Shown here: positions 1,867-32,301 of the stretch, in pieces
Position numbering within the stretch: position 1 is the stretch's first letter
How the letters are laid out: the number at the start of each line of letters is the position of its first letter
Source of the DNA: Candidatus Campbellbacteria bacterium
GTDB lineage: Bacteria > Patescibacteriota > Minisyncoccia > Phycocordibacterales > GCA-2747955
Direction of reading: 5' to 3'
Assembly: GCA_947311625.1 (NCBI GenBank)
Contig: CAMZKW010000002.1
Span: 19,013 to 83,012 of the forward strand
Length of the DNA stretch: 64,000 nt
Position numbers and translations under genes: made by a program
The notes under the pieces: model-generated
The model's input: only the letters and a program-made list of their open reading frames with translations
What the model was told of the DNA's origin: nothing
Databases searched by the model: none

Positions 1867-2904
1867 TTATTTTATTTCCCCTTTTTCAATCAATAATTTT
1901 TTACCAACTGTGTTTTTTATTTTTGTATCCGTTGTATCTCCATGTTTTTTCAAAAATGTTTCTTCAAATTTTACAGTCCCACAAAATTGTGCAATTTTTT
2001 TAACTCCTCCTGGGTGAATAGGTAAGAACTTTGTAACATCATAAACATTTCCTTTATAAACCACTCAACAATCTGATTCGGAATTATGTTTTTTCAATTC
2101 ATCCTTAGTAATTACTCCATCTATTTCAGCTAACATTTCTTTTGCTTTTTTTCCTCCACCCATAGCCTCTTCTTCCATATGTTTTTTACCAGAATTAACT
2201 GCCTCTAACAACTGTGCCTCTGTGATATATTTTGGATTAAAATCACCACCAACTCTTTTTAGATTTCTATAAAATGCAGACATGTGATGTTTAGATTGTT
2301 TTAGCAAAGTACTATATGCTAACTTTAAATCTTTTTTATCAGTTACATTTCCATATTTTATTAAATTAGCCATATTTATATCTTCCACCATTGCTCCAAC
2401 TTCAAAAGCATCTTTATCTGATTTTTTACCTTTTTCTGTTAATTCTTTGTATAATTTTGTAAATTTAGTATTTGTAAAGACACCCTGTTCTGATTCATCT
2501 TTTACAGGATCTTCTAAATCATACCTATCAATCAACTGATCAAAAACATCCATGTGTCTATTTTCAGAAACTGGAATATTTACAAAAGCTTTTGATTTTG
2601 TAGTTTTTGATAATTCCCTATAAATATCTCTTGCCATTTTTTCTTCCTCTCTCATGTGAATAATAGCTAACTTTTCATCTTCTGTTAAAATTCCTTTTTT
2701 GAAAGTTGAAAAATCAACTGTATGTTCATCACCATGTTTATCTTTTTTTTCAAACATTTCCTCATGTTTTTCCATTGTTTCTATAGACACTTCTTTTATT
2801 TCTTCTTTTACAGAATCTACAAATTTTCCTTTGTAAGTTGAATTTCCAAAATACAATGCCGCCAAAGCAACTAAAACCACTACTACTAATATTAATTTTT
2901 TCAT
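1867..2904 (-). CDS. Membrane-anchored fusion of a DUF2202 (ferritin-like) domain and a C-terminal cytochrome b5-like heme-binding domain
   Basis: N-terminal hydrophobic anchor (LILVVVVLVALAALYF). The middle section resembles DUF2202 (EEEKMARDIY...ENRHMDVF...EVGAMVEDINM...KHHMSAFYRNL). The C-terminus HNSESDC[TGA]VVYKGNVYDVTKFLPIHPGG matches the cytochrome b5 signature (DCW...VYDVT.F...HPGG). Merged at TGA 2067-2065. Confidence 0.75.
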
Positions 2905-3019
2905 AATCTTTTTATTTAATTTATTTTTAATTTCTATTATTATAACATTTTTTTAAAAAAAATAAAATTTCTTAATATTAAAAAAACTAAATTTTTTTTT
3001 ATAAAAATTTTAGTCTTTT

Positions 3020-3751
3020 TTATTTTGGCATTTTTTCAATGGCATAGCGTAAAGTTGTTCTGGGAATTTTATTATAATTGATGTGCAAAAATGCTTCGCA
3101 TTTTTGTGCACTCCTTTCAGCTCTCTTCCAAACCCCTCTCAACATCCAACCAACTGCCTTATGAATTAAATCTTCTTTGTCTTCCAAAAGAATTTTTGAA
3201 ATTTTCAAAGTTTCTGAAAGTTTATTTTCCCTGATAAAAGCAAATGTTGAAATAATGGCAATTCTGCGATATCAAAGTTTTTTTGATTTTGCTAATTTTT
3301 CTAAAATTTCTTTTTTTTTCAAACCATCCAAAATAGCCTGTCCTAAAATCTTATGGGCCGAAATATCAACCAAATCTAAATTATTTACAAAAATTTTATT
3401 TTTCAAATAAAATTTCAAAATTCTTCTCTGATTTTTTAAATACAATGATTCCGGTGATACTCGGTATCTTGCAAAAAGATTTACAAGAAAAATAAGAGAT
3501 AAAAGTCGTTCCTCGCGTATCTTTGATGAAACTAATTTTTCTAAAACTGAAAAATCATTTTTTTTAATTTGAGAAAAAACCTCCGCGGAAAATTGATTTC
3601 CAATTTTCCGCAAATCCGGCACCCTAACCCTAACAAAAACATCCCCTTCTCCATATTATCCTTTTCCTAACTTAAAAAATATTTCGTTGGCCTTTTTTCT
3701 TTTAAGAGAAGAATATTTTTTTAGTTCTTTTTTAATCTTTTTTAATAGCAT
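3020..3751 (-). pseudogene. AlkD-like DNA alkylation repair protein (HEAT-repeat glycosylase family) with an in-frame TAA
   Basis: Full-length frame from ATG 3751: MLLKKIKKELKKYSSLKRKKANEIFFKLGKG*YGEGDVFVRVRVPDLRKIG...KAVGWMLRGVWKR...RYAIEKMPK. The TAA at 3658-3656 occupies the position where the paralog remnant at 919-1180 has GAA (GKGEYG). One TGA (Trp) lies at 3274-3272. Confidence 0.7.
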
Positions 3752-3784
3752 TGAATAATTTTAACAGATTTAAAAACAAAAATC

Positions 3785-3807
3785 GAAATTTTGCTCCGCA
3801 AAATTTC
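3785..3807. terminator. Hairpin GAAATTTTGC-TCC-GCAAAATTTC (family 1)
   Basis: Same stem as 1816-1838. It lies 3' of minus-strand gene 3890-4312 and a T run follows on the minus strand. Confidence 0.7.
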
Positions 3808-3889
3808 TACTTTTTTTTAATTTCCCTAAAATATTATTTTTTTAACTTTTTATCCTCACAAATAAACAAAAGACTTTCTTATTTTTTTT

Positions 3890-4312
3890 TTATTTTTTAT
3901 CCTTTATTAAACAAGCACAAGGACAATTTAGACCTTCAATTTTTCCAATTAATTCTCCATCATAATTTGTTTCGCCGAGAGTATTAAAAACTTCTCCACC
4001 TTTAGCTGCACAATCTTTTTCTTTTATTACATTTGTTGGCAATTCTATTGTATTACTTTTTATTGGTATAAAATCTAACTTTGGTTTAGACTCTGGACAT
4101 TTTGCAAATTTACAATTTGGACCAGTTCTACCTACAAAAGTACCATTGACACATAATTTTACTTCCTGTGTGCAAATTTTACCATTTCTTTGATTATCAT
4201 AACTGGTCTCATTATTATTAATAATTGGTTCTATCTGGTTATTATTTTTATAAATTAAATATCCGCTAATCAAAATTACCAATGCCACTAGTCCTAAAAT
4301 TATTTTTTTCAT
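3890..4312 (-). CDS. Small secreted or anchored Cys-rich protein (hypothetical)
   Basis: 140-aa uninterrupted ORF with an N-terminal hydrophobic segment and 9 Cys. An extended -10-like AGTTATAAT (4327-4319) sits 6 nt upstream of the ATG. Confidence 0.5.
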   Translation of the reverse strand: MKKIILGLVALVILISGYLIYKNNNQIEPIINNNETSYDNQRNGKICTQEVKLCVNGTFVGRTGPNCKFAKCPESKPKLDFIPIKSNTIELPTNVIKEKDCAAKGGEVFNTLGETNYDGELIGKIEGLNCPCACLIKDKK

Positions 4313-4350
4313 AAATTTATTATAACTTTTTTTAATTAAAAAACAAAAGC

Positions 4351-4402
4351 AGAAATTTTGCCCCCTGTCTGCATGTGACGCACAGGCAGGAGCAAAATTT
4401 CT
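4351..4402. repeat. Family-1 hairpin whose loop is replaced by a ~30-nt GC-rich imperfect palindrome
   Basis: Outer stem AGAAATTTTGC / GCAAAATTTCT. The insert CCTGTCTGCATGTGACGCACAGGCAGG shares ACAGGCAGG and CCTGTC with the hairpin beside the RAYT gene (13631-13647). Confidence 0.6.
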
Positions 4403-4411
4403 ACTTTTATT

Positions 4412-5050
4412 TTATTTTAAATCTAAATAAGATATTTTTTGAAATCCGTCTCTATTTTTATCAATAAAATCATTCAACAAAATGATATTTTCTACATCTT
4501 TTTCTCTATCTTTATTAAAACTTGATTTAGAATTTTTATCAAATTTACCAGGATGGAACAAAATAGTAACACTACCATCATCTAATTTAGAAACTAGCTC
4601 TTTAATTTCTTCAAAAGTTTTAAAGCTTCCAGTTATCTTTTTATGAGTAGTTGTTAATTTATTTTTATCACCATCCAGATTTCTATAAAAAATATTATTT
4701 TTTATAGAAAATTCTTTTATGGATTTTTGACCTTCCTCTCTATAAGAATATTTATGCATATCTAAAAATACTGGCTCAAAATCAAAGATTTCTATAAATT
4801 TTTTATATTGTCTTTCAATTTCGGAATAAAAACTTGTTTTTTTTAAATCAATATTTTCAAAATCAACATGTAACCCCAATCTGTTTGGATATTTTTTAAT
4901 TTTTTTAATCTGTTCTTTTTGATTATCTTGTATATAATCAATCATGATGGATACGCTATCAATTTTATTATCTTCTAATAAAAATAATATACTTTCATTA
5001 AATACTTTTGAATAACCAAAATCATCAGCGTTAATAATTATTTTTTTCAT
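4412..5050 (-). CDS. YdjC/ChbG-like carbohydrate deacetylase family protein
   Basis: The N-terminus MKKIIINADDFGYSKVFNESI matches the YdjC family start (iiNADDfG.s..vn). 212-aa intact ORF. TGTTATAAT (5065-5057) lies 6 nt upstream of the ATG. Confidence 0.65.
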   Translation of the reverse strand: MKKIIINADDFGYSKVFNESILFLLEDNKIDSVSIMIDYIQDNQKEQIKKIKKYPNRLGLHVDFENIDLKKTSFYSEIERQYKKFIEIFDFEPVFLDMHKYSYREEGQKSIKEFSIKNNIFYRNLDGDKNKLTTTHKKITGSFKTFEEIKELVSKLDDGSVTILFHPGKFDKNSKSSFNKDREKDVENIILLNDFIDKNRDGFQKISYLDLK

Positions 5051-5071
5051 ACTTTAATTATAACACTTAAA

Positions 5072-28176: not shown

Positions 28177-28680
28177 CTAAATCAAATAATTTTCTTTCAA
28201 ACCATTAAATAACTCCACGTCTCCACCTTCGGCAAAACCTCTCGCTATATCATCAACCCTCTCATTGAATTCTTCTCCATTGTGAGCTTTTACATGGGTA
28301 AAAATAAATTTATTTTTTTCTTCTAAAATTTTCTTTGGATTATAAATTCCTTCCCATAATTCTTTATTTAAAACTGGTTTTTTATCGGATTTTTTCCAAC
28401 CATTTTTTATCCAACCATAAATTCATTTTTCAGTTCCATCGATAACATATTTTGAATCAATCATAAATTCAATTTCATAATTTTCCACATTCTTTTTAGC
28501 CAATGTCTCCATGGCAATTTTTACAGCCATAAGCTCCATCTGATTATTTGTAACATCTTCATATTTTTTTCCCATCTCTAAAATTTTACCATTGCTTATA
28601 AAAATAATTCCTCAACCACCTTTTCCGGGATTCCCTAAGGAAGAACCATCTGTATAAATTTTCATTTTTTTTAATTTCAT
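28177..28680 (-). CDS. rnhA: Ribonuclease HI
   Basis: MKIYTDGSSLGNPGKGG[TGA]G..., NNQMELMAV, IDSKYVIDGTEK[TGA]IYGWIKNGWKKSDKKPVLNKELW and HVKAHNGEEFNERVDDIA align with E. coli RNase HI. It is not in the ORF track because of three TGAs. Confidence 0.9.
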
Positions 28681-28686
28681 ACTCAA

Positions 28687-28695
28687 ATTATAACA
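28687..28695 (-). promoter_or_regulatory. Extended -10 TGTTATAAT, 6 nt upstream of the rnhA ATG
   Basis: Reverse complement of ATTATAACA; the spacer TTGAGT is followed by the ATG at 28680. Confidence 0.5.
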
Positions 28696-28732
28696 AAAAT
28701 AAAAAAAACACCCTATATTTTATAAAGTATTT
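28694..28732. repeat. Left copy of a perfect 39-bp direct repeat flanking the R-M cassette
   Basis: CAAAAATAAAAAAAACACCCTATATTTTATAAAGTATTT is identical to 31897-31935. Confidence 0.9.
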
Positions 28733-28735
28733 CTA

Positions 28736-29764
28736 TTATTTTTTCTTCTCCACATACAACACCAAATCTTTCATAATAATTTTCTGAATCGCAGAAATTA
28801 AAATTTCCATTTTTTCATAATCTGGTTGAAAGTTTTTGGTTGGGAGGGAGATGTTATATTTTCTCAGTCGAGAAGCCGTATTTTTACCATACTCTACTTC
28901 TCTAATATTTGTATTTATAGAAGAGATAATAAACTTTGAATTTTGTTTATTTAAAAAATCACTTTTTAAAGTATAAACATTACTTCCTTGCTTTGAATAA
29001 AATGGTTTTTCTTGGTAATAAACTTTATTTAGGTGTGTAAATGCTGATATTGAATTTTCAGGAATTAAATTAAAATTATTTCCAATTTGTTCAGGAACTT
29101 TTTCAACAACCCCATTATTATCTTGATTTTGCATTACAAAATTATATTTCAAATCTCCTTTTTTTTGTAAATCTTCTTTGGAACGCTGTTTTCCATAATG
29201 TTGAATTTTAAATAAATCACCAATTATATACTCGCCCCACTCAAATTTCCCACTCTCAAAATCTTCCAGAATTTTCTGCTCTTTTTCAGTTAAAACATAA
29301 TCTTTTAAATTATTTTCTTCTAAATATTCATCAAGATTTTTTATTTTTTCTGCTTCCACCTCATCAATAAAATTTTCCATAAAATCAAAATCTATTTCTC
29401 CGTTTTTTGTTGGGAGAGATATTTTTGTTTCATCAAAACTCCCCATTCGGTATTGTTTTCCATAATTAAATTTATCACCAAGTCTTTTATTAATTAAACT
29501 CGTAACAAACTTCTTTACAGATACAGAAATTTCTTCTTTTTCAAATAAAACTAAAATATTATCATCTGCGGAATATATATAATCACGAAAAAATGTATTG
29601 CCAAACATATCTATAGTTATAGTATTTTCCGGAAAAATTTCTTGTTCCTGGTTTCCAATAAACTCTGCAACTCCAGTATTTTCATATCCTGCAGTAATTA
29701 AAGGTCTCCCACCTTTTATTCTTTTTTCTACCGTTAATCTTTTTCCTCTTTTTATATCAAACAA
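28736..29764 (-). CDS. Specificity (S/TRD) subunit of the R-M system; HsdS-like and similar in size to BcgI subunit B
   Basis: 342 aa with two target-recognition-like halves and conserved helical spacers (...KIKNLDEYLEE..., ...EKMEILISAIQKIIMKDLVLYVEKKK). There is no ATG. The frame is open back to 29848, so the start could be TTG 29764 or ATA at 29830/29827, overlapping the upstream stop. Confidence 0.75.
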   Translation of the reverse strand: MFDIKRGKRLTVEKRIKGGRPLITAGYENTGVAEFIGNQEQEIFPENTITIDMFGNTFFRDYIYSADDNILVLFEKEEISVSVKKFVTSLINKRLGDKFNYGKQYRMGSFDETKISLPTKNGEIDFDFMENFIDEVEAEKIKNLDEYLEENNLKDYVLTEKEQKILEDFESGKFEWGEYIIGDLFKIQHYGKQRSKEDLQKKGDLKYNFVMQNQDNNGVVEKVPEQIGNNFNLIPENSISAFTHLNKVYYQEKPFYSKQGSNVYTLKSDFLNKQNSKFIISSINTNIREVEYGKNTASRLRKYNISLPTKNFQPDYEKMEILISAIQKIIMKDLVLYVEKKK

Positions 29765-29826
29765 ATCTTTAAGAAAAATCTCTTCGCCCCACTCAACATT
29801 TTCTAACTTTTTATTGAGTGGGGCTA

Positions 29827-31869
29827 TTATTTTCCCAAGTCATCTGGGTTATCATTTCCTTTTAAAATATTCGTTACTTCCCAAGAAAGATAATCACTTA
29901 CTGTTTTTTTGAAATCTTTGAGTGTTGGTTTCGTGTCAATTGGCGCGGATTGATTCCAATCTGCCCCATTTTTTGGATCAATGGTGTTTTCATAAAATTC
30001 TTTTTCAGAAAAAATATTTAATTTACTTTTTCCAAATCGTACGAGATTTACGATTTCTTCATATCGTTCTTTTGCTTTATTAGTGTCTTTTAAATTATTA
30101 CTGGCTTTTTTACGACTGGTTCGCGTATATCCATCTTCAGAAAAATCTATAAATTTTACCATTTCTTCTGGATGATGTTTTTCTCCCACCTTAAAAACAT
30201 AAATATTTGTTTGCACACTCGACTTCCCAATAAAAATATCTATCGGCATTTTTATACTTGCCACCAGCGTATTTTTTTCTAAAATTCTTTGGTTAAAATC
30301 TTTGGCTTTTCCACTCCCCGCAGAGTTTTGAATGATAATTGCTGCATATCCTTTGTGCATCATTTCCAGTGCTTTTTCTACAAAAACCATTCCGTTTCCA
30401 TCGGCAGAATATGGCGGATTTAAAATAAAAGCGTCCGCGGGAAATTTTTCATCAGTTTTTCCAAATCCGTAATTTCCATCAAAATCAGTTAAAGAATCTT
30501 TATTCAAGATATTAGAGCTTCCATCTCCCATTAAAATCATATTAAGAATGGCAAGCATATAAACACTTGAAAGTAGCTCCAAACCAAGCAACTGTTCGGC
30601 TTTAATCTTAATTTGTTTTTGAGTAAGTTCTTCCGGTGATTTGATAGTCTTTTTTGCATCAATAAGCATTTCATTCATCGCTGCCACCAAAAGTCCTGCC
30701 GAACCAGTAGCAAAATCCCATACATAGGAATCCTTATTTACTCGTGAAAGCTTTACTAATAAATTTGAAACATAAGATGGAGTAAGCACCACATCATTTA
30801 GTTTATCTTGAGAAAAACCAAGTCAACCATACATTTCATTAAAAAGTTTTCCTGTAAAATCAGTGGTAAGCCCAATTTTATAATAAATTCCGATATCATC
30901 AATAATTTTAGAAAAAACTCTTTTTAGTTGTGTCTCTCCATCTTGTATTTTATTTATATTTTCTGCCAAAATTGTATTTGATAAAGTTCTTATGATTAAA
31001 TCTTTTTTATCTGTTGGAAGCTTTTTCTCTTCTAAAAAATCTTCAATTTTTCTAATAATTATTTTTCCATCAGTATTATTTCCTGTTTCATTTTCAGATT
31101 TTAAATCATCTTTTTCAAGAGGCTTTACTTTTCCAGCAACCCCCAAGGTTGCAATGATAGCAGCCGCTACGAGATAAACTCTGTCATTTTCTCCAAGCCC
31201 TTTTTCATTTTCATAAATATCATTATTTAATTTTGTAAGACTAACATCTATCTCTCTTTCTTTTTGATCTTTTATCCTCTCCAACTCTTCTTGAGATAAC
31301 TTTAAGTTTTTTACGGTTTCAATAAAAGAATCAAAATTTTCTGGTGCTAAAAAAGAAAAATCCGAAAATTCTCCCACTTTTTGTCCCACTCCGAAGTTAT
31401 CTTTTGAAACAAAATAGACTCCAATTTGATGATGTACTTTCCCAGAAATATCCTTATACCCCGTCATACCAATAGCGATAATATCGGCATAACTCGTATG
31501 GTGAAGAATTGCATTTGCATAATGAACTGCTCCATTTACAGCAAAATCTTTTATATTTTTATAATTGAGTTCATTTTTTGATGTTTTATTTTCTACTTCT
31601 TCATCTGTATTCAATTTTTCCAACTTCCCCTTAACTCCTTTATACTCAATAAGTATTGGAAAATCATTTAAATTTTTATCTCGCAATAATAATTTTGCAT
31701 CGGGACGATTTCCACCTTTCCCCCCTCCTTTTGATTCATAATCTTTAAGTGCTTTGTCTATTTCAGTATTTAAAGATTCTTGCTCTAATTTATAATCTAA
31801 TCCATAAGATTTCATCCATCCATTTGCAAGATCTGCGATATTTGGCTCTATTGATTTTATTTTATTCAT
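29827..31869 (-). CDS. Fused endonuclease-methyltransferase subunit (680 aa). It combines an N-terminal PD-ExK nuclease-like domain with a gamma-class N6-adenine DNA methyltransferase, like BcgI subunit A (Type IIB).
   Basis: Motif I is VWDFATGSAGLLVAA and motif IV is FILNPPYS. The N-terminus carries GNRPDAKLLLRD...FPILIEYKG (PD...ExK). The two pieces are in one frame joined at TGA 30825-30823. No separate HsdR is present. Confidence 0.75.
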
Positions 31870-31875
31870 AAAAAT

Positions 31876-31884
31876 ATTATATCA
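31876..31884 (-). promoter_or_regulatory. Extended -10 TGATATAAT, 6 nt upstream of the R-M subunit A ATG
   Basis: Reverse complement of ATTATATCA; the spacer ATTTTT is followed by the ATG at 31869. Confidence 0.5.
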
Positions 31885-31896
31885 TAAAGATAAATT

Positions 31897-31935
31897 CAAA
31901 AATAAAAAAAACACCCTATATTTTATAAAGTATTT
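31897..31935. repeat. Right copy of the perfect 39-bp direct repeat
   Basis: Identical to 28694-28732. It is contiguous with the duplicated tRNA-Glu 3' fragment. Confidence 0.9.
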
Positions 31936-31937
31936 TA

Positions 31938-31968
31938 TTGTTGTGACTTCACGGAGAATCGAACTCCG
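31938..31968 (-). repeat. Duplicated 3' fragment of tRNA-Glu (T arm plus acceptor 3' strand plus 5 nt of flank)
   Basis: TTGTTGTGACTTCACGGAGAATCGAACTCCG is identical to 32058-32088. No matching 5' half is adjacent. Confidence 0.85.
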
Positions 31969-32063
31969 CTTATGAGGCAACGAGCTGAATAAAAGAAGGA
32001 ATAAATTCCTGAAATTAAATTCAAACAAAAACACTTCATAAAATACAAAGTGTTCTGTTGTTG

Positions 32064-32135
32064 TGACTTCACGGAGAATCGAACTCCGATTTCAGGAATG
32101 AGAATCCCGCGTCCTAGCCGTTAGACGATGAAGCC
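32064..32135 (-). tRNA. tRNA-Glu (anticodon CUC), no encoded CCA
   Basis: GGCTTCA TC GTCT AACGGCT AGGAC G CGGGA TTCTCAT TCCTG AAAT CGGAG TTCGATT CTCCG TGAAGTC A folds as a cloverleaf. The D loop is of the Glu type. Confidence 0.85.
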
Positions 32136-32218
32136 ATGTTTATTCTCATCGCTAACGGCTAGGACAGATGAGTTGCAAGCAACACCAAATAGGCATTTTT
32201 CGCAAGCTCAAAAATCCA

Positions 32219-32248
32219 TAGCCGTTAGACGATGAAGCCATGTTATTT
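32219..32248 (-). repeat. Duplicated 5' fragment of tRNA-Glu (about 5 nt of upstream flank plus acceptor 5' strand plus D arm start)
   Basis: TAGCCGTTAGACGATGAAGCCATGTT is identical to 32115-32140. It is separated from the intact gene by an 84-nt structured spacer. Confidence 0.85.
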
Positions 32249-32292
32249 TTTTAATAAAAATATTTTAAAATTATATCATAAAAAAATAAAAA

Positions 32293-32301
32293 TGTTATAA
32301 T
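32293..32301 (+). promoter_or_regulatory. Extended -10 TGTTATAAT, 6 nt upstream of the ATG at 32308
   Basis: Sequence match; the spacer is AGCCAT. Confidence 0.5.

What the first reader, a model, noticed from the sequence alone, without database searches (positions are those of the whole stretch)
28694..31935. The R-M cassette is bounded by perfect 39-bp direct repeats
CAAAAATAAAAAAAACACCCTATATTTTATAAAGTATTT occurs at 28694-28732, just after the S-subunit stop and overlapping the rnhA -10 box. It occurs again at 31897-31935, just upstream of the R-M promoter and contiguous with a duplicated tRNA-Glu 3' end. The 3.2 kb between the copies contains exactly the two R-M genes and their promoter. 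The repeat is itself a diverged copy of the terminator-like flank found 3' of the intact tRNA-Glu (32025-32057). The simplest reading is that the R-M pair was inserted between tRNA-Glu and rnhA with duplication of the target. It could then be lost again by recombination between the repeats. No recombinase gene is present in the cassette.
Basis: seen in the sequence. Interest (0 to 1): 0.6.

Follow-up and report, generated by a model that had tools for sequence, protein, structure and literature searches.

The report
Restriction-modification cassette between duplicated terminators
A foreign two-gene restriction-modification unit in a tiny uncultured (Patescibacteria) bacterium lies between two identical 39-base copies of a transcription terminator; this matches a known integrase-free insertion scar, but insertion could not be proven because no close relative with an empty site is available.

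Summary
The 39-mer occurs exactly twice in the 624-kb genome, at 28694-28732 and 31897-31935. The two copies bracket one 3,164-bp transcription unit holding a host-type promoter, a BcgI-like R-M fusion gene and an S gene.

The repeat is a complete intrinsic terminator. It is a diverged relative of the terminator behind the intact tRNA-Glu.

The cassette is horizontally acquired:
- Its R-M protein is 80-85% identical to proteins in several other phyla, and 67-77% to plasmid and phage copies.
- Close homologs were found in only 2 of 201 genomes of its own order.
- It uses TGG for Trp, whereas the host mostly uses TGA.

No recombinase gene is nearby. RecA, ComEC and DprA are present.

The genome also holds four other perfect 26-48-bp repeat pairs at tRNA genes. 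Perfect identity therefore does not prove recency, and insertion between pre-existing repeats remains a live rival.

Verdict: a probable new example, in Patescibacteria, of the known "R-M insertion with long target duplication". This scan has noted the same scar before on other DNA.

Side finding: the R-M/S gene junction carries a conserved -1 frameshift signal.

The parts
28694..28732 (-). Direct repeat copy 1. It is an intrinsic terminator (13-14 bp hairpin plus U-run) at the end of the R-M operon, fused to the rnhA promoter.
   Evidence: Exact match. RNA fold -11.6 kcal/mol, z -4.2. DNA homology to other R-M loci ends at 28735, 3 nt from the repeat.
31897..31935 (-). Direct repeat copy 2. 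It is the same terminator, sitting behind the duplicated tRNA-Glu 3' piece and upstream of the R-M promoter.
   Evidence: Exact match. RNA fold -8.3 kcal/mol, z -2.7. It is embedded in a longer homology with the flank of the intact tRNA.
29827..31869 (-). R-M fusion gene (A subunit, 680 aa). It has an N-terminal PD...EYK nuclease-like region plus an N6-adenine methyltransferase with an NPPY motif. There is one TGA codon, read as Trp349, at 30823-30825.
   Evidence: Pfam N6_Mtase E 3.7e-22 and weak VRR_NUC E 0.005. 76% identical to G026 and 80-85% to many phyla. W349 is invariant in 25 sequences. Foldseek hits on HsdM and BsaXI, from a low-confidence model.
28736..29836 (-). Specificity (S) gene with two target-recognition domains. 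There is no canonical start codon upstream of its conserved N-terminal motif, and the reading frame is -1 relative to the A gene.
   Evidence: Pfam Methylase_S E 1.6e-21 in two stretches. Translations.
29830..29836 (-). Slippery heptamer G_GGA_AAA at the end of the A gene, followed directly by the TAA stop. It is the predicted -1 frameshift site that joins A to S.
   Evidence: Present as GGGAAAR in all 10 DNA loci examined. 118 of 120 A homologs end in GK followed by 0-2 residues.
29786..29824 (-). Conserved 13-bp stem-loop starting 5 nt after the heptamer. It is the predicted frameshift stimulator.
   Evidence: RNAalifold on 7 loci gives -18.9 kcal/mol. Most pairs are kept through G-U-compatible one-sided changes, and 2 pairs show changes on both sides.
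31870..31896 (-). The cassette's 27-nt upstream segment, carrying a host-type extended -10 promoter (TGATATAAT at 31876-31884) 6 nt before the ATG. This implies a leaderless mRNA.
   Evidence: Sequence. The motif TGNTATAAT-N5-9-ATG occurs 189 times in the genome. There is no homology to the upstream regions of foreign homologs.
28177..28680 (-). rnhA (RNase HI), the host gene downstream of the cassette. Its promoter TGTTATAAT (28687-28695) begins inside repeat copy 1.
   Evidence: Pfam RNase_H E 2.6e-32. The junction TTTTTGTTATAAT occurs 23 times in the genome.
31938..31968 (-). Duplicated 3' part of tRNA-Glu (T-arm, acceptor strand and 5 nt beyond), identical to 32058-32088.
   Evidence: the repeat finder family D1. 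Alignment.
32063..32135 (-). Intact tRNA-Glu(CUC).
   Evidence: ARAGORN. Rfam tRNA model 55.9 bits.
32025..32057 (-). Terminator behind the intact tRNA-Glu (unit X). It is the diverged relative of the 39-bp repeat.
   Evidence: RNA fold -13.7 kcal/mol, z -3.4. Alignment.

Best explanation
The two 39-bp repeats are two copies of one host intrinsic terminator, the one that closes the tRNA-Glu(CUC) locus.

A horizontally acquired 3.16-kb BcgI-like (Type IIB) restriction-modification unit integrated at the junction between that terminator and the rnhA promoter. No recombinase of its own was involved, and the whole terminator was duplicated in the process. This is 'insertion with long target duplication', probably after DNA uptake by the competence machinery.

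The result is three insulated units in a row on the minus strand:
- the tRNA-Glu locus, ending in terminator copy 2;
- the R-M operon with its own promoter, ending in terminator copy 1;
- rnhA with its own promoter.

The repeats are long enough for rare RecA-dependent deletion of the cassette. Such deletion would be opposed by post-segregational killing by the restriction enzyme.

Shown here: the repeat, its uniqueness, its terminator character, the foreign origin of the genes, the absence of a local recombinase, and the presence of RecA, ComEC and DprA.

Inferred: that the duplication arose at insertion, and the molecular mechanism of that insertion.
For: - The repeat is exact and unique in the genome.
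- It folds as a hairpin plus U-run terminator.
- DNA homology to other R-M loci fills the interval and stops 3 nt from copy 1.
- The R-M protein is 80-85% identical to proteins of Campylobacterota, Bacteroidota, Bacillota and others, and 67-77% identical to plasmid and phage copies. Host rnhA is only about 54% identical within the genus.
- A close homolog was found in only 2 of 201 genomes of the order.
- Trp codon use in the cassette is TGA:TGG 1:6, against 1031:364 in the host, p = 0.0017. Codon-usage score for the A gene is at the 6th percentile.
- The junction of copy 1 with rnhA (TTTTTG|TTATAAT-N6-ATG) is a native architecture. It occurs 23 times in the genome and also at tRNA-Glu loci of G003 and G008.
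- No integrase or transposase lies in or near the cassette. The only tyrosine recombinase is on another contig.
- RecA, ComEC and DprA are present.
- Three of the four criteria of Furuta et al. 2010 (PMC2853133) are met.
- Contig-end overlaps of 97-129 bp show that the assembly k-mer was far longer than 39, so both junctions are spanned by single k-mers.
Against: - No empty-site allele, circular junction or conspecific genome could be examined.
- rnhA is not adjacent to tRNA-Glu in any relative, so the proposed ancestral interval is unverified.
- The two tRNA-Glu 3' units share TTTGAATTTA, which is 6 nt beyond the repeat and inside the supposed insert. I estimate the chance of this at 0.002-0.01.
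- The cassette has a host-type leaderless promoter and near-host composition, so it is not a fresh arrival from a distant donor.
- Other perfect 26-48-bp repeat pairs at tRNA genes are conserved in architecture in sister species. Perfect identity therefore does not date the event.
Confidence: 0.5

Rival explanations
1. The repeats existed before the cassette. This genome makes short modules at tRNA genes in which the tRNA end or terminator is present twice, about 100-120 bp apart. The R-M unit landed in, or replaced, the spacer of such a pair. This is the third class of Furuta et al., 'chance insertion between repeated sequences'.
For: - Four other perfect repeat pairs lie at tRNA loci of this genome: tRNA-Arg(GCG) 48 bp at 119-bp spacing, tRNA-Tyr 47 bp at 98 bp, tRNA-Glu 5' side 26 bp at 104 bp, and tRNA-Glu 3' side 31 bp at 120 bp.
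- The same module at tRNA-Arg(GCG) in species G002 has its own perfect repeat of at least 40 bp.
- Homology between units X and Y continues 6 nt past the repeat into the segment upstream of the R-M gene.
- That segment carries a host-type promoter.
Against: - The small modules carry a conserved 28-nt motif next to their second repeat. No such motif or spacer remnant is left next to copy 1, and only 3 nt separate it from the S stop.
- No other pair in the genome is a bare terminator.
- The scenario needs near-total replacement of a spacer.
Confidence: 0.2
2. The terminator was copied secondarily. The cassette first inserted without duplication. A copy of the neighbouring terminator was later placed behind the S gene by template switching or gene conversion, and was kept because it insulates rnhA.
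For: - Copy 2 sits in its original context, with extended homology to unit X on both sides. Copy 1 has novel junctions on both sides.
- The repeat equals a complete functional terminator, from the base of the hairpin to the end of the T-run.
Against: - No known mechanism copies a precise 39-bp unit across 3.2 kb without flanking homology.
- It requires two events where one suffices.
Confidence: 0.1
3. Site-specific or Campbell-type integration. A circular form carrying one copy of the 39-bp sequence recombined with the chromosomal copy, either through a recombinase supplied in trans (for example the single Xer-like enzyme) or through RecA.
For: - Direct repeats around a unit beside a tRNA gene are typical of att sites.
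- Homologs of the cassette travel with an integrase (Tenacibaculum), with a resolvase plus Tn3 transposase (Arsenophonus plasmid), or in a phage.
- One tyrosine recombinase and RecA are encoded.
Against: - There is no recombinase in or near the cassette.
- The repeat is the terminator and not the tRNA segment, and the tRNA piece is not repeated at the far end.
- The repeat's palindrome has a 3-nt centre, unlike dif or att cores.
- The locus shows no skew signature of a replication terminus.
- The donor circle would need the identical host sequence.
Confidence: 0.08
4. Assembly artefact. A separate small replicon, or DNA of another organism, was threaded into the contig through a shared 39-mer.
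For: - The genome is a 22-contig metagenome-type assembly.
- 39 is a k-mer size used by some assemblers.
Against: - Contig ends overlap by 97-129 bp, so the final k was at least about 97 and each junction is covered by single k-mers.
- The cassette carries a TGA=Trp codon at an invariant Trp, a host-type leaderless promoter and host-like GC.
- Only two copies of the repeat exist in the assembly.
Confidence: 0.04

Closest known systems
R-M gene insertion with long target duplication (Nobusato et al. 2000, Gene 259:99, cited from my own knowledge; Furuta, Abe and Kobayashi 2010, PMC2853133, read)
   Same: - The insert holds only R-M genes, is far below 20 kb, and has no mobility gene.
- It is flanked by perfect direct repeats longer than 30 bp that occur nowhere else in the genome. 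The H. influenzae cases in that paper have 46-bp repeats.
- The host has DNA-uptake genes.
   Different: - The empty site that defines the class could not be shown.
- The duplicated target is a complete intrinsic terminator fused to the next gene's promoter.
- The host is a Patescibacteria lineage with TGA=Trp.
- The system is Type IIB-like.
tRNA-linked genomic islands integrated by tyrosine integrases (attL/attR formed by the tRNA 3' segment)
   Same: It lies beside a tRNA gene that has a duplicated 3' end, and the foreign cargo is flanked by direct repeats.
   Different: - No integrase is present.
- The repeats that bracket the cargo are the terminator and not the tRNA segment.
- The tRNA duplicate brackets only 89 nt and excludes the cassette.
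BcgI / BsaXI Type IIB restriction-modification enzymes, (RM)2S assemblies (PMC3592470, PMC11997821)
   Same: - One polypeptide carries an N-terminal PD-(D/E)XK-like region and an HsdM-like N6-adenine methyltransferase.
- There is a separate S gene with two recognition domains.
- No HsdR was found in the genome.
- A phage homolog is annotated 'BcgI alpha chain-like'.
   Different: - There is no sequence-level hit to any solved structure.
- The structural match to BsaXI comes from a low-confidence model.
- Nuclease activity and bilateral cleavage are untested.
- The S gene appears to be reached by a -1 frameshift rather than by its own start codon.
Engineered EcoKI HsdM-HsdS fusion ('Type IMS', Roberts et al. 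2012, PMC3510504), and programmed -1 frameshifting of the dnaX / IS3 type. Relevant to the side finding only.
   Same: - An M-S fusion is functional but needs additional free M. A frameshift that yields both A and A-S would supply both.
- The signal is an X_XXY_YYZ heptamer, a short spacer and a stem-loop.
   Different: Here the fusion would be natural, would also include the nuclease domain, and is predicted only from comparative sequence.

Membership tests
R-M insertion with long target duplication (Furuta et al. 2010 criteria) | The inserted segment contains both restriction and modification functions. | tested here: met
   The A gene has an N6_Mtase domain and an N-terminal PD...EYK nuclease-like region. 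The S gene has two Methylase_S stretches. Nuclease function is inferred from family resemblance.
R-M insertion with long target duplication (Furuta et al. 2010 criteria) | The insert is shorter than 20 kb and has no mobility genes. | tested here: met
   3,164 bp holding two genes only. The only Phage_integrase match in the genome that passes the family cut-off is on contig C1.
R-M insertion with long target duplication (Furuta et al. 2010 criteria) | The flanking direct repeats are longer than 30 bp and are not a dispersed repeat. | tested here: met
   39 of 39 bases identical, with only two copies in 624 kb.
R-M insertion with long target duplication (Furuta et al. 2010 criteria) | A related genome shows the empty site with one copy of the repeat. 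| not testable with these tools
   The repeat is absent from the metagenome and genome collections. The closest rnhA relatives are at most 52-56% identical and not syntenic.
tRNA-targeted integrative island (site-specific recombination) | An integrase is encoded at one end of the element. | tested here: not met
   No integrase in 28.7-31.9 kb or in the neighbouring genes.
tRNA-targeted integrative island (site-specific recombination) | The flanking repeats are the tRNA 3' segment (attL/attR). | tested here: not met
   The repeat starts 7 nt after the tRNA piece. The tRNA piece is not present at the rnhA side.
Type IIB (BcgI-like) R-M system | Nuclease and gamma-class N6-adenine methyltransferase are in one polypeptide. 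| tested here: inconclusive
   The methyltransferase is clear: E 3.7e-22, with an NPPY motif at residues 484-487. The nuclease is supported only by a weak VRR_NUC match (E 0.005, below cut-off) and a visible PD...EYK motif. The fold model has pLDDT 53, with a BsaXI hit at E 6.7e-5.
Type IIB (BcgI-like) R-M system | A separate specificity subunit with two recognition domains, and no HsdR. | tested here: met
   Methylase_S in two stretches. No T1RH-like_C match in the genome, which is 92.6% complete.
Type IIB (BcgI-like) R-M system | Cleavage on both sides of a bipartite site. | not testable with these tools
   This needs enzyme assays or methylome data.

The most novel reading that the evidence does not exclude
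The duplication may have been made by the enzyme itself. [quoted passage not shown] Suppose two sister chromosomes were each cut on opposite sides of a site lying inside the terminator, and the R-M DNA was joined between them. The interval between the two cut positions would then appear as a direct repeat at both junctions, here 39 bp. That would make Type IIB cassettes self-inserting elements whose scar length reports their cleavage geometry.
Probability: 0.07. Interest if true: 0.7.

Novelty: new member of a known kind. Interest (0 to 1): 0.35.

Why it matters
It adds a clean candidate, from the little-studied Patescibacteria, to the unexplained class of R-M cassettes that enter genomes without a recombinase and duplicate 30-100 bp of target. 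Three further points follow:
- The duplicated unit can be a whole terminator, so the newcomer and both neighbours each keep a terminator-promoter pair.
- In genomes with conserved repeat modules at tRNA genes, perfect repeat identity cannot be read as recency.
- The cassette offers a natural test case for the spread of standard-code defence genes into a TGA=Trp host.

Tried and rejected
**Searches that gave nothing**
- Exact scan for the repeat core in metagenome and genome collections: none found.
- Exact-protein look-up of the S protein in public assemblies: not on record.
- rnhA-based search of metagenome contigs: the best hits are 52% identical and none has tRNA-Glu upstream.
- Synteny of 25 window proteins in same-genus loci: only rnhA itself is shared, plus one unrelated gene in G001.
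- Flanking repeats around the homologous cassettes in G026 and two metagenome contigs: none.

**Readings considered and rejected**
- The repeat as a dispersed intergenic element: rejected. One search found only short A-rich partial matches.
- Genetic code 25 (TGA=Gly), which I assumed at first: rejected in favour of TGA=Trp.
- A dif/Xer site: rejected on sequence shape and position.
- The repeat as an att site made of tRNA sequence: rejected.

**Analyses that were uninformative or weak**
- Rfam: nothing beyond the tRNA.
- Consensus fold of the 28-nt-motif elements: no structure in an ungapped alignment, so uninformative.
- Sequence search of the PDB: no hit.
- The AlphaFold model was of low confidence, so the fold matches are only weak support.
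Full report
**Observation**

There is no third copy with up to 3 mismatches in the window, and none appeared in 100 shuffles. The window's whole assembly (G000, 624 kb, 22 contigs, 92.6% complete) also holds only these two copies. A 23-nt core is absent from the public metagenome and species-representative genome collections. The repeat is therefore real, far beyond chance, and not a dispersed element.

**Anatomy, read on the minus strand**

All the genes concerned lie on the minus strand. In order:
- a structured leader;
- tRNA-Glu(CUC), 32135-32063;
- its terminator, called X here, 32057-32025;
- a spacer of about 55 nt;
- a 31-nt perfect copy of the tRNA 3' end, 31968-31938;
- 7 nt;
- repeat copy 2, 31935-31897;
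- 27 nt containing TGATATAAT, then 6 nt and the ATG;
- the 680-aa A gene, 31869-29827;
- the S gene, ending at 28736;
- 3 nt;
- repeat copy 1, 28732-28694;
- TTATAAT, then 6 nt and the ATG of rnhA, 28680-28177.

**What the repeat is**

As RNA the repeat folds into a 13-14-bp hairpin followed by U8AU5. The fold energy is -8 to -12 kcal/mol, with z -2.7 to -4.2. It is a complete intrinsic terminator, running from the base of the stem to the end of the T-run.

It is homologous to terminator X but diverged from it. The tRNA part of the two units is identical.

The junction of copy 1 with rnhA, TTTTTG|TTATAAT-N6-ATG, is a native architecture. TTTTTGTTATAAT occurs 23 times in this genome. TGNTATAAT followed by ATG within 5-9 nt occurs 189 times, which points to leaderless mRNAs. 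The tRNA-Glu loci of relatives G003 and G008 end the same way.

**The cassette is foreign**

- *Absence from relatives.* None of the 11 same-family genomes has it at DNA level. At protein level a close homolog occurs in 2 of 201 sampled genomes of the order: the window's own genome and G026, of a different family.
- *Identity to other lineages.* The A protein is 76% identical to the G026 copy. It is 80-85% identical to proteins labelled Sulfurimonas, Arcobacter, Tenacibaculum, Clostridium, Desulfonauticus and others. It is 67-77% identical to genes on Clostridium perfringens, Arsenophonus and Acinetobacter plasmids and in an Escherichia phage. By contrast, rnhA is only about 54% identical among species of the genus.
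- *Extent of DNA homology.* Homology to other R-M loci covers 31856-29750, the conserved middle of S (29433-29243) and the end of S (28846-28735). It stops 3 nt from repeat copy 1 and does not include the 27-nt promoter segment.
- *Genetic code.* The host reads TGA as Trp. Its tRNA(UCA) has the anticodon arm of the neighbouring tRNA-Trp(CCA) and G73. TGA makes up 74% of Trp codons in the host (1031 TGA to 364 TGG).
- *Trp codon use in the cassette.* The cassette has 1 TGA to 6 TGG (binomial p = 0.0017). However, 9.5% of host genes with at least 5 Trp codons are as TGA-poor. The single TGA sits at a Trp that is invariant in 25 homologs. The cassette has therefore mutated at least once inside a TGA=Trp lineage.
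- *Composition.* GC and codon use are only mildly atypical. The A gene's codon score is at the 6th percentile, and its GC3 is 0.20 against a host mean of 0.16.
- *Promoter.* It is of host type, unlike the Shine-Dalgarno-type leaders of foreign homologs.

Taken together, the unit is an acquired but partly domesticated gene pair.

The condition 'all relatives carry it at this site' is not met, and neither is 'the repeat is common at many loci'.

The positive test, an empty site, could not be done:
- No contig with the repeat exists elsewhere.
- The S protein is not on record in other assemblies.
- The nearest rnhA relatives in metagenomes are 52% identical.

In addition, rnhA is not next to tRNA-Glu in any of 6 same-genus or same-family loci or 35 metagenome loci. 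Local synteny is not conserved even within the genus. That tRNA-Glu/rnhA was the ancestral interval is therefore an assumption.

**Assembly artefact**

Many contig ends of G000 overlap other contigs by 97-129 bp. The final k-mer of the assembly was therefore far longer than 39, and each junction (flank, repeat, cassette) is contained in single k-mers. Together with the host-type code and promoter of the cassette, this makes a chimera unlikely.

**Context that changes the reading**

An all-genome repeat search found four more perfect long direct-repeat pairs, all at tRNA genes:

| Locus | Repeat length | Spacing |
|---|---|---|
| tRNA-Arg(GCG) | 48 bp | 119 bp |
| tRNA-Tyr | 47 bp | 98 bp |
| tRNA-Glu 5' part | 26 bp | 104 bp |
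| tRNA-Glu 3' part | 31 bp | 120 bp |

Three of these pairs enclose a small insert that ends in a conserved 28-nt motif, AAATAGGCATTTTTCGCAAGCTCAAAAA. The motif has 4 copies in this genome, 4 in G001 and 2 in G002, and none in the reversed-pattern controls.

The same module sits at tRNA-Arg(GCG) in G002, with that species' own perfect repeat of at least 40 bp. Repeat pairs at tRNA loci are thus a standing feature of this genus, kept identical or made repeatedly. Two things follow:
- Perfect identity of the 39-mer does not date the event.
- The cassette could have landed between pre-existing repeats.

In favour of that rival, units X and Y share TTTGAATTTA, which is 6 nt beyond the repeat and inside the supposed insert. 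I estimate the chance of this at 0.002-0.01. Against the rival, no motif or spacer remnant lies next to copy 1, and no other pair in the genome is a bare terminator.

**Mechanism**

The best-supported reading, at about 0.5, is insertion with duplication of the whole terminator, without a cassette-borne recombinase. It would have occurred in a host that encodes ComEC, DprA and RecA. Furuta et al. note that most such cases occur in naturally competent species.

- *Consequence, shown from sequence:* each of the three units keeps a terminator and a promoter.
- *Consequence, inferred:* the 39-bp identity allows rare RecA-dependent loss.

Rivals and my estimates are:
- insertion between pre-existing repeats, 0.2;
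- secondary copying of the terminator, 0.1;
- Campbell-type or site-specific integration in trans, 0.08;
- assembly artefact, 0.04.

**Comparison with known systems**

The locus meets three of the four criteria of 'R-M insertion with long target duplication' (PMC2853133). The fourth, an empty site, is untestable here.

It fails both defining features of a tRNA-integrated island. It has no integrase, and the repeats are not the tRNA segment.

The enzyme looks like a BcgI/BsaXI-type Type IIB system:
- a fused nuclease-like region and HsdM-like methyltransferase;
- a two-domain S subunit;
- no HsdR in the genome;
- a phage homolog annotated as BcgI alpha-like.

The nuclease evidence is nevertheless weak, and the fold model is poor.

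This scan has reported the same scar on other DNA several times.

**Side finding: a frameshift signal at the A/S junction**

The S frame has no ATG, GTG or TTG upstream of its conserved N-terminal motif (L..KL.NVEWGEF.L.DLF) in any of 10 loci examined. The A gene always ends in ...G-K, either directly at the stop codon or, in G026, one codon before it. This ending lies on the heptamer G_GGA_AAR.

Further evidence:
- 118 of 120 A homologs end in GK plus 0-2 residues, after an otherwise variable tail.
- A 13-bp stem-loop starts 5 nt after the heptamer. It is conserved through G-U-compatible changes and some double changes.
- In Tenacibaculum the two parts are fused in frame.

This is the canonical layout of a programmed -1 frameshift. 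It would yield A and an A-S fusion from one mRNA. That fits two published results: BcgI's A2B stoichiometry and its activation by excess A (PMC3592470), and the finding that an engineered EcoKI M-S fusion needs extra free M (PMC3510504). Three full-text searches on this theme found no description of such a signal. NCBI annotation of the Arsenophonus copy instead starts S at an ATA codon, and most homologs lack that codon.

**Verdict**

The locus is best filed as a probable new member of a known kind, of moderate to low interest in itself. The frameshift signal and the tRNA-linked repeat modules are the more novel leads.

Noticed in passing
window 29786-29836 (minus strand); also L031, L035, L036, L037, L155, L156, L171, L172: The A/S gene junction of this widespread R-M family carries a canonical -1 frameshift cassette. 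It consists of the heptamer G_GGA_AAR at the A stop, a 5-nt spacer and a conserved 13-bp stem-loop. S has no start codon upstream of its conserved N-terminus. 118 of 120 A homologs end in GK. The predicted product is an R-M-S fusion alongside free R-M. Three full-text searches on this theme found no description of it.
   Followed up: partly
L157 (Tenacibaculum dicentrarchi contig) 2501-5056: This is a natural in-frame fusion (851 aa) of the same A protein to an S-type recognition domain. That domain is nearly identical to the first recognition domain of the window's S protein. The gene lies directly downstream of a tyrosine integrase and near ArdC-type conjugative-element genes.
   Followed up: partly
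window 32141-32218 (motif at 32187-32214); G000:C15:20593-20759; G000:C6:31406-31550; G000:C1:20623-20650; L161, L163, L164, L166, L167, L169: Small elements of 51-78 nt end in a conserved 28-nt motif, AAATAGGCATTTTTCGCAAGCTCAAAAA, preceded by a short hairpin of variable sequence. In most copies a piece of a tRNA gene follows directly. In this genome three of the four copies are flanked by perfect 26-48-bp direct repeats of the tRNA end plus flank. The motif was found only in this genus among the genomes searched: 4, 4 and 2 copies in G000, G001 and G002. Its function is unknown.
   Followed up: partly
window 32136-32250 (minus strand): The roughly 100-nt leader upstream of tRNA-Glu holds a sense and an antisense copy of the tRNA 5' part. 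It can fold with the tRNA into an alternative structure (-75 kcal/mol, z -7.2). The leader is present in G001-G003, and its copies track each species' own acceptor-stem sequence. It is therefore a conserved feature and not a recent duplication.
   Followed up: partly
G000:C1:62943-63014 (tRNA-UCA) and genome-wide: The genome reads TGA as Trp, not Gly. The tRNA(UCA) has the anticodon arm of the adjacent tRNA-Trp(CCA) and G73. TGA aligns with an invariant Trp in the R-M protein and, by eye, with Trp positions of RNase H motifs. 74% of Trp codons are TGA. The nearest named relatives by ribosomal protein S16 are Paceibacteria/Parcubacteria MAGs.
   Followed up: partly
genome-wide; examples at window 28687-28695, 31876-31884, 32292-32300: Promoter architecture: an extended -10 element (TGNTATAAT) lies 5-9 nt before the ATG at 189 sites, which implies that most mRNAs are leaderless. 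Terminator T-runs are often fused directly to it; TTTTTGTTATAAT occurs 23 times.
   Followed up: partly
G000:C9:3929-9967: A second N6-adenine methyltransferase locus (829-aa ORF) has large neighbouring ORFs of 843 and 343 aa. No long flanking direct repeats were found there.
   Followed up: no
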